Of a stretch of 64,000 nucleotides of DNA, positions 8,772 through 61,322 are shown piece by piece (the stretch's first letter is position 1; each line of letters starts with the position of its first letter). A program made the position numbers and the translations under genes. The notes under the pieces were generated by a model. It was not told the origin of the DNA, made no database searches, and worked only from the letters and a program-made list of their open reading frames with translations. Source of the stretch: Octopus vulgaris (lineage: Eukaryota). The stretch is taken from contig OX597818.1 in the NCBI GenBank assembly GCA_951406725.2, positions 51,894,001 to 51,958,000 of the forward strand. The letters are read 5' to 3'.

Positions 8772-9480
8772 TATTCAATAAAATCACCATTGGCTTCAAC
8801 CACGGTCTCCAGACGACTTCGGAATCTCCTGCAGCTCTTCTGGACAGTCTCCTTGTTTAAGTTGGTGAATGCTGCCAAAATCCCTGCTTTTAGTTCATCT
8901 TTGGTGTTACAAGGAGTTTTGTTGGTCTCTCACTCAACTGAGCCCTCTTATATGATAATCAAGGGGGTTGCATTCTGGCGACTTAGGTGGCCAGATTTTA
9001 GGGGTGACGTGGTTGCAGAAATTGTCTGAGAACCATAACTGGGTTCTCCTGCTCGTGTGGCATGGTCCAGAGTTCTGTTGCCTGACTCAGGGTCTTCCAG
9101 CAGCCACCCTCTTGACACATAACACGGTCTTTCCCTTGTCTTTGATGGCTTGGGATAAAAATTGGCCCTTTCTCATCTTGTATAAGGAATACCGAATGTC
9201 TTCATGCCCTACCTGCCTGATAAGAAACTCAGATACTCCCTTGTCCCTGGCGATGGACCTAATTGACTTGGGGGGATCATTGTCAAGAATGACCTGGATT
9301 TCACCAGCAAATTCAGGAGTTATTTTCTCATCAGAATGATCGGAGTGCGTCTTCCGAGCTGCCATAACTTCGTAACTACTATTACACTCATCCAACTCTT
9401 TTCGAATCCTCTGCATTGTCCTCAGATTGACACCCAAACACTCTGAAATGTTCATATTGCAGCTTCCGTCGCGAATACCA
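8772..9480 (-). pseudogene. Degenerate Tc1/mariner-superfamily transposase
   Basis: HTH-like NISECLGVNLRTMQRIRKEL (ORF 9087-9455). Further 3' on the minus strand: QQNSGPCHTS, WPPKSPECNPLDY and CRRFRSRLETVVEANGDFIE*. Frameshifted and internally deleted. Confidence 0.85.
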
Positions 9481-10785
9481 GTCGCTATGAGGTACCTTAG
9501 GAAAGTAACTACTGTTATAGCCCTGAGTCAATCAAAGCCTAGTGAGAGGATTTGGTAGGCAGAAACTAAAAGAAGCTCATTATGTATGTATGTATGCACA
9601 CACATACACACACACGTGTGTGTGTGTGTGTGTGTGTTTGTTTGTTCCTCATCAATGCTTGACAACCGGCATTGATGCATCCTAGTAATTTAGCGGTTCG
9701 GTAAAAGGCACCAATGAAATAAGTACCATGTTTAAAAACTAAGTGTTGGGATTGATTCGTTGTACCCAAACCCTCCAAGACGGCCCTTTAGCATGGCCAC
9801 AATCCAATGACCGAAACATAAAAAAATAAGAATAAAAAAAACATAAGAAATAGAGATAACGTAGCGCTGCGGACGACTGGTCAAATTTCAGTATTTCCAG
9901 TTCCGGCCGGTTCTGCAGGCCGGAACTTCTCATAGATTTCATTTATTTTCCTTTATTTTCCTTCCTTTTTATATTTCGAAAAACTGAAACTGTAAAAAGA
10001 CGAGCGAATCGATATACCACAGAGCAAGGCAATAACGATATCAAGTACATATTACAGGGATACGACTGATACTAATCTCGACGCCTCCAGAGATTAAATA
10101 AAAAATGGCAACAACGATATCATTGATCTTTTTGTTATGTTATCTTTTCAAGAGAGACGACGTTTAGGAGAAGCACAAAGGTAACACCACCATAGTATAT
10201 CTCATACCTTTTTATTCCTTTATTCACAGACTTATTTACGTATTTATTGAATAACCGAAGTTCAGGAAGACAGTCTATAATTGACTTCCCACCCACCTCA
10301 CATCTCTCGCCATTTTCTTCATTTTTTTTCTTCTTTTATATATTTCCTTCTTTCTTATTTTCGTACAAAGTTTCATTCTTTCCTTCCTTTTTACGTATTT
10401 TTGCCCTCACCTCTACTACTACTACTACCACTACTGTTACTACTACTACTACTACTACTACTATTACTGTATAAACAGACACACGCTACTTTCCTCTGTG
10501 TAATCAGACGACTGAGACGGTTTCGCGACAGAGCTGCTTAGAAGAAGCATCAACTCTATTCTAGACGCTTTCTAACCGTGGCACTTCTTATCATTTTGCT
10601 TTGAACTACATGCTTTCCTAAACCTTCCATAGCAACTTACACTCGGCGTGGAATGATTTGCTTGCTTTCTGCTAATGTATGCCTATATGTATATACACTC
10701 ACAAACATACAAAGAAAAAGATAAAAAAAAGAAAACAAAAATACACTTATGCACAAATACGTGTGTGTGAGTAAGTGTATATAAG

Positions 10786-12162: not shown

Positions 12163-12351
12163 TTCTTAGAATAAAAAGGATGTTTACATTTTCAAATACT
12201 CAGGGATAAAGGAAAGGATAGGTATTCACAGAAGTTGTAGATATTAAAGTTTAAAAAAAAATTTAAGATGATCGTTTGTGTGTTCGGAAATTGTAGATAT
12301 GTAAGTTTCCTAACTTATTTTGAGGGAGATTTAAAATACTCACAGGAAATT

Positions 12352-12882
12352 GTAGATCACATACCCGAAGGCATCATCGAAAATGATAATGTAAAGATCC
12401 TGTGGGATTTTATGATTCAGCGCGACCATGAGTTAGAGAATAGGAAGCCAGACATAGTCTTAATTGAGAAAGAAAGCAAACGATGCTGGATCATAGATAT
12501 AGCTTGCCTAGCTGACAAGGTATGTGATAAGGAAGAAAGAAAAGTCGATAGATATGACAGGTTAGCTTGGGAAGTTAAGCAGTTGTGGTCGATGAAAAAG
12601 GTAGCAGCAGTACCAATAATTCTCGGAGCCCTAGGAACAGTTAACAAAAATCTCGAGAAGCACGTGAAACAAATAGGGGCTGCAATAAAGGTAGAGCACT
12701 TGCAGAAAACAGCACTACTTGGAATCGCTCGAATACTCCGGAAGGTGCTCGAAAAATAAGACGAGGTAACCTTAGTTCACTGGTAGTGAAGAGCTGACAC
12801 CGTAGTATATCTTCAGCGTTAGAAGCTGTGCAAAGGCAATAATAATAATAATAATATTAATAATAATAATAACAATAATAAC

Positions 12883-16293: not shown

Positions 16294-16502
16294 CAGAAAA
16301 ATTTAGAAATGAGTTGTAAGCATTAAAATAAAATTCTTTTATATAGTGTGATGACGGGGACTGCTATCTCTAAATAACACACACACACACACACACATAT
16401 ACATACATACATACATACATACATACATACATACATACATACATACATACATACATACATACATACATACTTACATACATACATACATACATATATAAAC
16501 AT

Positions 16503-16936
16503 AATCAAATAGGGTAATAAAATAAATTATTATTACCAGTGGCCTAGCACAAAAGACGAATTAGTCATTAGACTATATATTTTTCGTATAGAAATATAAT
16601 AAAAGGCTTCCAAATAAGGAAGCGTAGTGTTAGAACCACAAAAAGGGATAAATTCATGAAAGGAAAGAAAATTAAAAACATTTACCATCTCAGCTATATC
16701 CCAGACCGAAAGGTTTCTACCTATTTTTAGCCTTCGTAAGGATTACGAAGGCTTCCCACTGAAGAACCTGGCCTGGCAAATATATTCTGTGTGTTTGCTA
16801 AAAAAGAGGTAGAAACCGTTCGGTCTGGGATATAGCTGAGATGGTAAATGTTTTTAATTTTCTTTCCTTTCATGAATTTATCCCTTTTTGTGGTTCTAAC
16901 ACTACGCTTCCTTATTTGAAAGTCTTTTATTATATT
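16503..16936. mobile_element. Fold-back Penelope-like/retrozyme insertion between microsatellites
   Basis: ~135-bp inverted arms (16592-16730 / 16798-16936). The left arm has a ~90-nt extra tail, and a hammerhead spans the spacer and right arm. Confidence 0.75.
16754..16830 (+). ncRNA. Type I hammerhead ribozyme
   Basis: TCCCA-CTGAAGA-ACCT[hairpin insert]AGGT-A-GAAA-CCG TT CGGT-C-TGGGA. All three helices pair; predicted cleavage after GUC at 16825. Confidence 0.8.
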
Positions 16937-16960
16937 ACATATATATATATATATATATAT

Positions 16961-17022
<62 letters not shown>

Positions 17023-17462
17023 GAATGAATAATAGTAGATGAGTGTACTGATACACTCATCTACTAATATTAGTGTCTGTACACTCATCTACTATCATTC
17101 ATTTATCTCTCTCTACATATATATCTGTTTACGTATATATTTGCTGATCTCATTAGTTTAATTGTACCTCTTAAACACATGTTTGGTATCATTCAATAAA
17201 TAGACATAATGGAGTGTTTACTGACTGATGTTTATCAATTTTATATCCTCTCCATTTTCTTATTTGCCTTATAAGTCCTGGGTAAATTTCCAACTTACCC
17301 CCACCCATACCTAGTATTCAATTGCAATATTGCCATGCAATAGTAAGCACTTGGTTAAAAATACGTAGGTACATATCCAATGGTATATTGGATATTTAAT
17401 ATCCCTTAGATGGTTTATTAACCTGTAACTCATACAGACATATATGCATATATATATATATT

Positions 17463-24800: not shown

Positions 24801-24951
24801 TACGATAAAAAATTAATGAAGTACTTACTAGCACCCATCGAAAAAAGCACATGCACTTATGTGTACTTATGTGTACTTATGTGTACTCATGACTCTTGCT
24901 TGATCTTTTTTTATGGGTGCTAGTAAGTATTTCATTTATCTCTTATCGTAT

Positions 24952-25011
24952 TTTCTACTGAAGAGGAAAGAATCCATAGGATTAATCCCGAAATTGATTC
25001 AATATTAGAAA
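24952..25011 (+). ncRNA. Type I hammerhead ribozyme
   Basis: TTTCTA-CTGAAGA-GG(A)aag AATCC ATA GGATT aat CCC-GAAA-TTGA T TCAAT-A-(T)TAGAAA. Confidence 0.75.
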
Positions 25012-25292
25012 TAACGAACTTTTAAAAATAAATTCTGTTAGCTAGCTTCCCTCGATTTCAGCACGATGTGTATTTATAGTGAATGTAAAATGAAATGTGG
25101 AAATTGACGATTTAAAGTCTGTTCTCAGTATATTGGCATGGAAATAGTTTTTCTTTTGCCCTTCTTTATAGGTTGTTTGTAATTTTAACCTTTAAAGGTA
25201 TTTTAATATGCTGCCACTTTTGATGAAAGTTTTTTCTGAAAAAATTTTATCCTATATTAATATTATTATTATGATTATTATTATTAGTAGTA

Positions 25293-25801: not shown

Positions 25802-26262
25802 AAAATTATAAGTTAGGATATCTACGAGATACCACCATTCTGAAAATAGCAGCCATGATCTGACTCTAAAACCACCTTAATTGTCCATATATCAACACGG
25901 AGAGAAAACAAAGAGACAAGATGAAACTTGTATTCGTATGTTGTGCTTATATGTATATGTATTTATGTTTCTCTTCTGTGTGTATTCTACTGACGAGGCA
26001 AAGCATTCCTAAATGCAAAGCCAGAAATCCGGGATCTAGAATTATCCAGTAATTTTTTACTAGTTTCATCTTGTCGCTTTGTTTTCTCTCCGTGTTGATA
26101 TATGGACAATTAAGGTGGTTTTAAAGTCAGATCATGGCTGTTATCGTGGTATCTCGTAGATACCTTAATTTATAATTTTAATAATTATTACCTTTGAAGG
26201 TTATTTTTTCCATGCTAACCACTTGATAAAATCGTTATTTTATTTTTAGATCTTATCCTTAT
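25802..26262. mobile_element. Fold-back Penelope-like/retrozyme insertion in (TA)n
   Basis: Inverted arms ~25802-25928 / 26062-26179; hammerhead in the spacer; ~80-nt tail similar to 25180-25257. Confidence 0.8.
25984..26042 (+). ncRNA. Type I hammerhead ribozyme
   Basis: ATTCTA-CTGACGA-GGC aaa GCATT ccta AATGC aaa GCC-A-GAAA-TCC G GGAT-C-TAGAAT; predicted cleavage after AUC at 26036. Confidence 0.8.
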
Positions 26263-50029: not shown

Positions 50030-50176
50030 TCATCCATGTGCATACAGTGTACATATATATGTGTATGGGTGAGGTGGACTATGCACATTCTTAAATACAC
50101 GTATGCTTGTTACATGTAACACAGAAAATTGAAAACTTCGATGATCTGAGAAAGTCGACTGAGGGAACACATTTTA

Positions 50177-50219
50177 CTGATGAGATCCAACAATATCGAA
50201 ACATGCCAGTTGGTGTCAG
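50177..50219 (+). ncRNA. Hammerhead ribozyme core
   Basis: CTGATGA-GAT ccaacaat ATC-GAAA-CA tg CCA gt TGG TGT-C. Helix I pairing is not evident. Confidence 0.6.
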
Positions 50220-50457
50220 CATTTTACTTATAAATTTTTTGATTAAAAATTCAGAATTGGTTGGAGCGATTAGAATCATTTCGCTTCTTTATTACATTCG
50301 GAGAAAATTTCTAAATTAATTTTCGGATTTTTGCTTGCAATAAAAATCTCATAAGGCTAAAAATTTTAACACTCCGCTATATCATATGTGACATCCTACA
50401 GGATATGTGTCTAAATTGCAAACTGCTCTACTCGAGATATTTACCCTACAGCTCTGT

Positions 50458-60266: not shown

Positions 60267-60468
60267 GACCGCGTGTGTATCGTTGGCGATTTTCTTTCTC
60301 CGTTTTCTTTTCTTTTGACCTTTCCTTTTTCTATGTTTCTGACGACGAGCTCAGCTCGAAACGTTAAATCCTCCTTCTTTCTTTCCTTTCCTGAGCGTCC
60401 AATAACACTGTATTTGTTCAACGTCGTCGCGTTGTTGTGTTTTCTCTTTGTTCATCTTTGGATTAACT
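60267..60468 (+). mobile_element. Short (TA)n-embedded element with minimal hammerhead (60336-60368)
   Basis: TTT-CTGACGA-C-GAGC tca GCTC-GAAAC GTT-AAA: a loopless palindromic helix III (AACGTT), typical of Penelope-like minimal hammerheads. Confidence 0.65.
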
Positions 60469-61100: not shown

Positions 61101-61322
61101 CGGGGACCGGTTTTGGGGGGGTTACGCTGGGTTTCTCGCTCATAAGGGGTTTCACCCTACGGTGTATCTTCAAAACCCAAGCACTACTGGCCTAAAACCT
61201 CTTTAAAAAAAAATTTAAGCGGTCTTAGGCCAGCAGTGTTTGGGGTCTGAGGATACGCCGTGCGGTTAAACGCCTTATGTGCGAGAAACCCAGCGTAACC
61301 CAATAAACCGGCCCCCATTATA
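61096..61322. mobile_element. Hairpin MITE / fold-back element
   Basis: Imperfect ~105-bp inverted arms (GGGTTACGCTGGGTTTCTCGC / GCGAGAAACCCAGCGTAACCC) around an A/T spacer; TA-rich flanks. Confidence 0.8.

What the first reader, a model, noticed from the sequence alone, without database searches (positions are those of the whole stretch)
16754..16830. Best-preserved hammerhead: all three helices, extended helix II, extra A before GAAA
Helix I is TCCCA/TGGGA, the core is CUGAAGA and GAAA, and helix III is ACCG-UU-CGGU with a GUC site. Helix II (ACCT/AGGT) encloses an additional hairpin, TGGCAAATATA/TGTGTTTGCTA. Immediately 5' lies a perfect hairpin, AGCCTTCGTAA-GGA-TTACGAAGGCT (16729-16753), exactly at the inversion junction, suggesting snap-back priming (inference).
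Basis: partly seen in the sequence, partly recalled or inferred. Interest (0 to 1): 0.75.

Follow-up and report, generated by a model that had tools for sequence, protein, structure and literature searches.

The report
Hammerhead retrozyme, Penelope-type inverted insertion
This is one dispersed copy of a 438-base non-coding repeat that carries a predicted self-cutting hammerhead RNA with a small quirk in its core; it belongs to a known class of jumping RNAs (retrozymes), was likely pasted in by a Penelope-like retrotransposon, and the neat hairpin beside it is only the scar where the two halves of this insertion were joined.

Summary
The motif is there as described and is real: helices I, II, III and the inner hairpin are supported by compensatory changes across 25 related copies. 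It sits in a ~438-nt, 35% GC, non-coding unit that is dispersed through this animal genome in (TA)n as partial tandems and head-to-head inverted pairs. This is an animal non-LTR retrozyme, i.e. a non-autonomous Penelope-like element. The copy is not special within its family. The 'extra A' is family-wide. It is position 11.1 left unpaired after the canonical G10.1-C11.1 pair went to A·A and then lost one A. The 5' hairpin is locus-specific junction filler. Snap-back does not explain the inversions: the outer ends fall at two fixed sites, one of each in 19 of 26 inverted loci and never two of the same, which matches the two Penelope initiation sites shown in vitro (PMC11167929). Cleavage, expression, circles and the autonomous partner are not shown. 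The scan has reported the same class and two-site footprint for other families in this genome.

The parts
16754..16830 (+). Type I hammerhead variant (open helix I)
   Evidence: sequence
16754..16758 (+). Helix I 5' strand, pairs with 16826-16830; predicted outer extension 16750-53 with 16834-37
   Evidence: 4 of 5 pairs show a change on both sides; extension from the fold only
16759..16765 (+). Core CUGAAGA (C3-A9)
   Evidence: CTGA.GA in the 25 aligned copies, which were selected for it; 41 of 43 family rows keep both boxes
16766..16769 (+). Helix II base, pairs with 16807-16810
   Evidence: ACCT/AGGT, AACT/AGTT, GACT/AGTC, GATT/AATC among relatives
16774..16800 (+). Inner hairpin extending helix II beyond an internal loop
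   Evidence: 100% of cells paired, 1 compensatory pair; a further U-A/C-G swap
16811..16811 (+). Unpaired A at position 11.1 (the 'extra A')
   Evidence: 10.1/11.1 is G-C or G-U in 5, A·A in 8 and missing/A in 12 of 25 copies; tree
16812..16825 (+). GAAA, helix III (3 bp + GUUC, near-palindrome) and C17; predicted cut 16825/16826
   Evidence: helix III is a perfect palindrome in 14 of 25 copies
16739..16936 (+). Right arm of the insertion: unit positions 1-197, outer end at site B
16496..16731 (-). Left, inverted arm: unit positions 59 to about 294, outer end at site A; holds only the 3' half of the hammerhead
16729..16753 (.). Junction hairpin: 16729-39 is an inverted copy of the start of the right arm; AGC 16729-31 is a 3-nt microhomology with the left arm. 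Not part of the family unit
   Evidence: other copies have a different sequence 5' of 16739
16377..16495 (.). Left flank (TACA)n ending in ATATA
16937..17022 (.). Right flank (TA)n then (TAGA)n

Best explanation
The motif is a predicted type I hammerhead ribozyme variant inside a 438-nt non-coding repeat unit, a likely animal retrozyme that is probably copied into TA microsatellites by the enzymes of a Penelope-like element (PLE). Shown here: the unit, its dispersed partial-tandem and head-to-head inverted copies, the covarying hammerhead fold, and two fixed outer ends (site B about 105-110 nt and site A about 205 nt downstream of the predicted cut). Inferred: the PLE protein cuts both strands of a (TA)n tract; one DNA end primes reverse transcription at site A and the other at site B; both cDNAs run back through the hammerhead, often for more than one unit, so the template is a circle or an uncut multimer and not a cut linear monomer; the two cDNA ends are then joined by microhomology or short filler. 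At this locus the B-primed cDNA likely folded back for 10-11 nt and annealed through 3 nt to the A-primed cDNA, which left the hairpin. The ribozyme would process source transcripts, probably slowly and helped by dimer formation through its palindromic helix III. This genomic copy is probably a dead offspring: in a read-through transcript its 3' half is predicted to pair with the inverted arm.
For: Unit: period 438-440 in L013, L018, L033; GC 0.35; longest ATG ORF 46-52 aa; circular fold z -3.0 to -6.0, 0 of 30 shuffles as low for each. Copies: 45 scored matches at 90-100% including the locus itself; 57 exact matches to a 24-nt piece of the 3' half against 0 for the reversed control; 214 exact matches to a sister-family pattern against 0. 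Fold: 93.6% of cells paired, 8 of 17 pairs changed on both sides, 0 of 500 shuffles as high on all five measures, slid controls 13-49%; motif-anchored count 437 of 450. Ends: 65 of 73 outer ends at A (39) or B (26); of 26 inverted loci 19 are A/B, 0 A/A, 0 B/B, 7 have one other end; in the set not selected for site A, 10 of 10 classed loci are A/B, p = 0.001. Arms pass the predicted cut in 16 of 30 and stop at it in 1 of 30 in the set not selected for the hammerhead; 16 of 73 arms exceed one unit, the longest 811 nt. Junctions: 14 microhomology, 4 blunt, 8 with filler. Arms in L001, L006 and L017 differ at common family haplotypes, which suggests separate templates. Literature: a purified PLE protein cuts and extends both strands, starts at two internal RNA sites that define the 'tail', and does not need hammerhead cleavage (PMC11167929). 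Intact RT plus GIY-like elements with type I hammerheads exist in this genome and end in (TA)n at two distances from the hammerhead (5 loci printed).
Against: No cleavage data. The canonical 10.1-11.1 pair is missing and the hammerhead fold is 2.6-3.7 kcal/mol above the minimum. In Xenopus only 1 of 9 predicted retrozyme dimers cleaved (bioRxiv 10.64898/2026.07.22.740005). No autonomous element shares sequence with the unit among 43 PLE loci from two protein queries. No long tandem source array among 47 distinct family loci; the longest is 1.9 units. Arms usually share rare variants, as expected from one template or from later homogenisation, so 'two templates' rests on 3 loci. The covariation shuffle does not keep relatedness, and the aligned copies were chosen for having both core boxes. 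Loci are the best-scoring ones, not a random sample, and end positions blur by about 10 nt into (TA)n.
Confidence: 0.8

Rival explanations
1. Full snap-back: one cDNA primed at site A ran to unit position 1, folded back on the GGA loop and copied itself as far as site B; the left arm later lost 43 nt between two GCT motifs.
For: Perfect 11-bp hairpin with a 3-nt loop exactly at the junction; the arms share three minority variants; L025 has a 25-bp perfect fold-back; self-priming has been proposed for PLEs (PMC3846280).
Against: Needs a second event (the deletion). The arms differ at a two-change haplotype that is common in the family. Only 2 of 26 inverted loci have a fold-back hairpin, and only 2 of 26 have inner ends within 10 nt of each other. 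In 10 of 19 A/B loci the B arm cannot be a copy of the A arm.
Confidence: 0.2
2. The unit is a non-autonomous PLE whose hammerhead is slow or vestigial after losing the G10.1-C11.1 pair; copies are made from uncut tandem transcripts and no RNA circle exists.
For: Missing 10.1-11.1 pair and unfavourable fold; arms read through the cut site; PLE insertion in vitro used unprocessed RNA (PMC11167929).
Against: At least six compensatory changes arose inside the 20-copy clade that already lacks G10.1-C11.1, with the core boxes kept, so the fold stayed under selection. An axolotl hammerhead with a U·U mismatch at the base of helix II still cleaves, better as a dimer (PMC7229834, passages). No long tandem source array was seen.
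Confidence: 0.3
3. The units are solo terminal repeats (pLTR fragments) of an autonomous PLE that I did not find, not a self-standing non-coding element.
For: Same inverted-plus-tail architecture as truncated PLEs (PMC8557442); Xenopus retrozymes are related to pLTRs.
Against: Arms wrap head-to-tail through the whole 438-nt unit with no ORF between. No PLE ORF is joined to the unit in the 96 unit-bearing loci screened, duplicates included; the two PLE ORFs nearby (L013, L015) are separated from it by (TA)n.
Confidence: 0.1
4. Chance motif, or an assembly fold-back artefact.
For: No Rfam hit.
Against: Covariation; 0 hits in 40 shuffles; the arms differ at 5 of 140 columns and have different extents; 25 other inverted loci have the same layout.
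Confidence: 0.02

Closest known systems
Metazoan non-LTR retrozymes (Cervera & de la Pena 2020, PMC7229834, passages; Li, Clavereau & Pollet 2026, bioRxiv 10.64898/2026.07.22.740005, parts 1-3 of 5)
   Same: One type I hammerhead per unit of a few hundred bases, low GC, no ORF, tandem units, self-paired circular fold, co-occurrence with PLEs; axolotl HHR_Amex2 also has a defect at the base of helix II.
   Different: Here the copies are dispersed partial tandems (at most 1.9 units seen) and inverted pairs in (TA)n; helix II is long and two-part; 11.1 is an unpaired A; expression and cleavage are not shown.
PLE-associated hammerheads (Cervera & de la Pena 2014, PMC4209133, parts 1-2 of 4 and one supplement passage)
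   Same: Type I, short helix I, long helix II, palindromic helix III suited to dimers.
   Different: Their extra nucleotide is on the 5' side (between 9 and 10.1) and G10.1-C11.1 is conserved; here the unpaired A is on the 3' side and G10.1-C11.1 is lost.
Insertion structure of EN+ Penelope-like elements (Craig 2021 PMC8557442, passages; Arkhipova 2013 PMC3846280, passages; Frangieh 2024 PMC11167929, parts 1-3 of 4)
   Same: Partial tandems, head-to-head inverted copy, a tail on one end only, AT-rich or (TA)n targets, two internal start sites.
   Different: The tail is about 95-100 nt rather than 30-40; the template is non-coding; one start site per arm was strict in the loci seen, whereas the in vitro study saw no strand difference in start site.

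Membership tests
Type I hammerhead ribozyme (canonical consensus) | Core C3-A9 CUGANGA, G12-A15 GAAA, U16-H17 | tested here: met
   16759-65, 16812-15, 16824-25
Type I hammerhead ribozyme (canonical consensus) | Three helices round the core, helix I open, supported by covariation | tested here: met
Type I hammerhead ribozyme (canonical consensus) | Pair 10.1-11.1 directly adjacent to the core (a rejection criterion in PMC3088659) | tested here: not met
   A16811 lies unpaired between helix II and G12; so filed as a variant that would work like a hammerhead, not as a canonical member
Type I hammerhead ribozyme (canonical consensus) | Match to an Rfam hammerhead model | tested here: not met
Type I hammerhead ribozyme (canonical consensus) | Helix I / helix II tertiary contact | not tested
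   A conserved internal loop in helix II is visible in alignment A3 but no contact was modelled
Type I hammerhead ribozyme (canonical consensus) | Mg2+-dependent self-cleavage 3' of H17 | not testable with these tools
   needs in vitro transcription
Animal non-LTR retrozyme | Tandem units of about 150-450 bp, each with a type I hammerhead | tested here: met
   438-440 nt period with a hammerhead in both units in L013, L018 and L033; the second L033 unit has a core substitution
Animal non-LTR retrozyme | Low GC, no coding capacity | tested here: met
   GC 0.35, longest ATG ORF 46-52 aa
Animal non-LTR retrozyme | Self-paired predicted circle | tested here: met
   61-69% paired, z -3.0 to -6.0 against 30 shuffles each
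Animal non-LTR retrozyme | Expressed as linear and circular monomer RNA | tested here: inconclusive
   only contigs of runs guessed to be RNA were available; their head-to-tail joins also exist in the genome
Animal non-LTR retrozyme | No LTR, PBS or PPT | not tested
   no dedicated search; the layouts show no terminal direct repeats round an inner region
Non-autonomous Penelope-like element | Head-to-head inverted plus partial tandem copies with a one-sided tail | tested here: met
   26 of 47 loci inverted; 19 A/B
Non-autonomous Penelope-like element | AT-rich or (TA)n target | tested here: met
   flanks printed
Non-autonomous Penelope-like element | Sequence shared with the terminal repeat of an autonomous PLE | tested here: inconclusive
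   none found in 43 PLE loci from two protein queries, a small part of the PLE diversity in this genome

The most novel reading that the evidence does not exclude
An active natural hammerhead lineage that gave up the G10.1-C11.1 pair in two steps (G-C to A·A to a lone A before G12) while every helix kept covarying. The loss would act as a built-in brake that lets circles or multimers survive long enough to be copied by a Penelope enzyme from two fixed sites, one on each target strand and sometimes on two different RNA molecules. The sister families would form a ready-made natural series for measuring what the 10.1-11.1 junction does to cleavage rate.
Probability: 0.3. Interest if true: 0.55.

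Novelty: new member of a known kind. Interest (0 to 1): 0.32.

Why it matters
It adds a retrozyme superfamily from a cephalopod-like genome (organism judged from recalled SINE motifs and from earlier scan notes, not from a database call). I found no paper describing cephalopod retrozymes or a natural unpaired A between 11.1 and G12. The insertion ends give genomic support for linking retrozymes to the two-start-site PLE mechanism shown in vitro. The graded G-C / A·A / lone-A series makes a narrow structure-function question directly testable. The class itself, the PLE link and the idea of self-priming at inverted junctions are all in print.

Tried and rejected
Rfam: no hammerhead hit; the miRNA-family hits are microsatellite and hairpin noise. 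Expression: no RNA holder listed. Contigs of three runs guessed to be RNA (X1-X3, two studies) cover most of the unit and show a head-to-tail join of about 438 nt, but the same join is in genomic copies, so it is no evidence for circles. No contig of X1, X7, X9 or X10 crossed the hairpin junction; a hole proves nothing. Autonomous partner: blastn and tblastn of the unit and sister units against 28 + 15 PLE loci gave only weak hits (unit E about 0.04 or worse; the strong hits came from other repeats in one query's flank). Pfam found RVT_1 in L119 and nothing in L100; the 'Hydra-like' label for L100-type elements is my recall, not a test. No PLE ORF was recognised among the 65 ORFs of at least 120 aa in the window. 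One search used a mis-indexed structure string and is void; one search is the corrected count, and it still has 8 of 25 rows shifted by one column in helix II, which is why the motif-anchored count was added. Earlier scan notes on 'rewired' hammerheads concern a different motif. Look-ups of scan notes by sequence, by nearness and by words found nothing for this family. Supplements: that of PMC7229834 could not be read, file 1 of PMC4209133 was not searched, and those of the 2026 preprint are closed; they may list cephalopod hammerheads or this core variant.

Full report
Observation. The motif is a type I hammerhead: helix I 16754-58/16826-30, CUGAAGA 16759-65, helix II 16766-69/16807-10 extended by an 11-bp inner hairpin, an A at 16811, GAAA 16812-15, a 3-bp helix III with a GUUC loop, and a predicted cut after C16825. 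A descriptor written after seeing the motif finds it once in the window and never in 40 shuffled windows. Rfam does not recognise it. On its own the 77-mer prefers another fold by 2.6-3.7 kcal/mol; helices II and III are weak.

The element. The window lies in a 2.8-Gb animal genome. The motif belongs to a repeat: 45 scored matches from 927 first-look candidates (candidates include sister families) and 57 exact copies of a 24-nt piece of its 3' half. Loci with two hammerheads give a head-to-tail period of 438-440 nt. The unit is 35% GC, has no ATG ORF over 52 aa and folds as a circle better than all 30 shuffles in each of three copies. The 60 loci reduce to 47 distinct ones (13 duplicates dropped). 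Most have (TA)n at one or both ends. In the window the insertion is a head-to-head pair: 16496-16731 on the minus strand (unit positions 59 to about 294) and 16739-16936 on the plus strand (1-197).

Is the fold real? Sister families align over most of the unit at about 70-86% identity; a more distant group (L063-L071) was reached through a copy next to L029. On 25 copies chosen to span these groups and to hold both core boxes, 93.6% of cells pair, 8 of 17 pairs change on both sides, no shuffle of 500 reaches any measure, and slid controls pair 13-49%. A motif-anchored recount gives 437 of 450. The shuffle ignores relatedness, so this is support and not a probability. Helix III changes in length and sequence yet is a perfect palindrome in 14 of 25 copies, the feature tied to dimer cleavage in PLE hammerheads (PMC4209133).

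The extra A. It is position 11.1. The distant group has G10.1-C11.1 (or G-U) in 5 of 5 copies, 8 copies have A·A, and 12 copies including this one have a lone A. A tree of the hammerhead plus 105 nt separates the G-C group from the other 20 (100/100) and nests the lone-A copies inside the A·A grade, with one or two origins (midpoint root, trait columns left in). Taking the general G10.1-C11.1 consensus as ancestral (PMC4209133; supplement passage), the order is G-C, then A·A, then lone A. At least six compensatory changes occurred after G-C was lost, so selection on the fold continued. The published extra nucleotide of PLE hammerheads lies on the other side of helix II, and the survey in PMC3088659 rejected hits with mispairing next to the core. 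I found no report of this variant; unread supplements may hold one.

The hairpin. It is not part of the unit: other copies, and contigs from four runs, have a different sequence 5' of 16739. Its left strand is an inverted copy of the first bases of the right arm, and its first three bases double as a microhomology with the left arm. Across 26 inverted loci the junctions are microhomologies (14), blunt (4) or short fillers (8); a perfect fold-back hairpin occurs in 2. The outer ends are the regular feature: 65 of 73 fall at site A (unit 285-300) or site B (189-204); 19 inverted loci have one of each, none has two of the same, 7 have one end elsewhere. In 10 of the 19 the B arm reaches more than 20 nt further 5' than the A arm, so it was not copied from it; in 5 the A arm reaches further and in 4 they are within 20 nt (outermost segments only). 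In L001, L006 and L017 the arms differ at common family haplotypes, though most arm pairs share rare variants.

Mechanism. Shown: unit, fold, layout, two fixed ends, read-through of the cut site (16 pass, 13 stop short, 1 stops at it among 30 arms not selected for the hammerhead; 16 of 73 arms longer than one unit). Inferred: a PLE protein cuts both strands of (TA)n and extends both ends from two internal sites of the RNA, as shown in vitro for the anole Poseidon element, where the two sites define the genomic tail and hammerhead cleavage is dispensable (PMC11167929). The template was a circle or an uncut multimer; these data do not separate the two. The cDNAs were joined by microhomology, here after a 10-11 nt fold-back. 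Full snap-back plus a later deletion remains possible for this locus alone. In a read-through transcript the ribozyme's 3' half is predicted to pair with the inverted arm, so this copy is unlikely to be a source.

Partner. PLE families with long open frames exist in this genome. One group has type I hammerheads with long helix II, G10.1 paired to C or U and a palindromic helix III, and ends in (TA)n about 56-62 (2 loci) or 202-217 (3 loci) bases past the hammerhead; the longer distance resembles site A. No sequence homology to the unit was found in 43 loci, so the partner is unidentified.

Relation to what is known. Animal retrozymes (PMC7229834) and their PLE origin (bioRxiv 10.64898/2026.07.22.740005), PLE hammerheads (PMC4209133), inverted-plus-tail insertions (PMC8557442) and self-priming at junction palindromes (PMC3846280) are published. 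I formed the two-site reading; scan notes read report the same for 355-495 nt families elsewhere in this genome, which is not independent evidence. This 438-nt family was not found in the scan's notes.

Verdict. A real hammerhead variant in a new retrozyme family of a known class; the junction hairpin is a local scar. Interest 0.32.

Noticed in passing
window 25980-26050 (+): Another type I hammerhead-like motif with an inner hairpin in helix II and an A before GAAA, in a sequence that did not match the 438-nt unit. Could be an independent case of the same junction.
   Followed up: no
window 24945-25030, 50165-50235, 60325-60380, 61238-61300 (+): Further CUGANGA...GAAA motifs from other repeat families; none passed my strict descriptor.
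   Followed up: no
window 17005-17122: Small inverted/tandem repeat right of the insertion; it contains a 12-nt motif that also lies at the end of the L100-type PLE terminal repeat.
   Followed up: no
L100, L102, L105, L127-L138, L141: RT plus C-terminal GIY-like elements with open frames up to about 900 aa, many near-identical copies, some in tandem; L100 has no Pfam hit; several carry a type I hammerhead with long helix II and end in (TA)n at two distances.
   Followed up: partly
L013 2-1320 and L015 1790-3194: PLE fragments share the same (TA)n tract as retrozyme insertions, which points to a common target rather than a shared element.
   Followed up: partly
L012, L045, L052: Non-inverted copies that begin near site B and end at site A, with TA-rich sequence on both sides (92, 544 and 551 nt), suggesting that site B is also where a cDNA can be joined to the far DNA end.
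   Followed up: partly
window 12241-12759 (+) and 9087-9527 (-): ORF fragments that resemble a non-LTR retrotransposon endonuclease tail and a mariner-like transposase (labels from recall).
   Followed up: no
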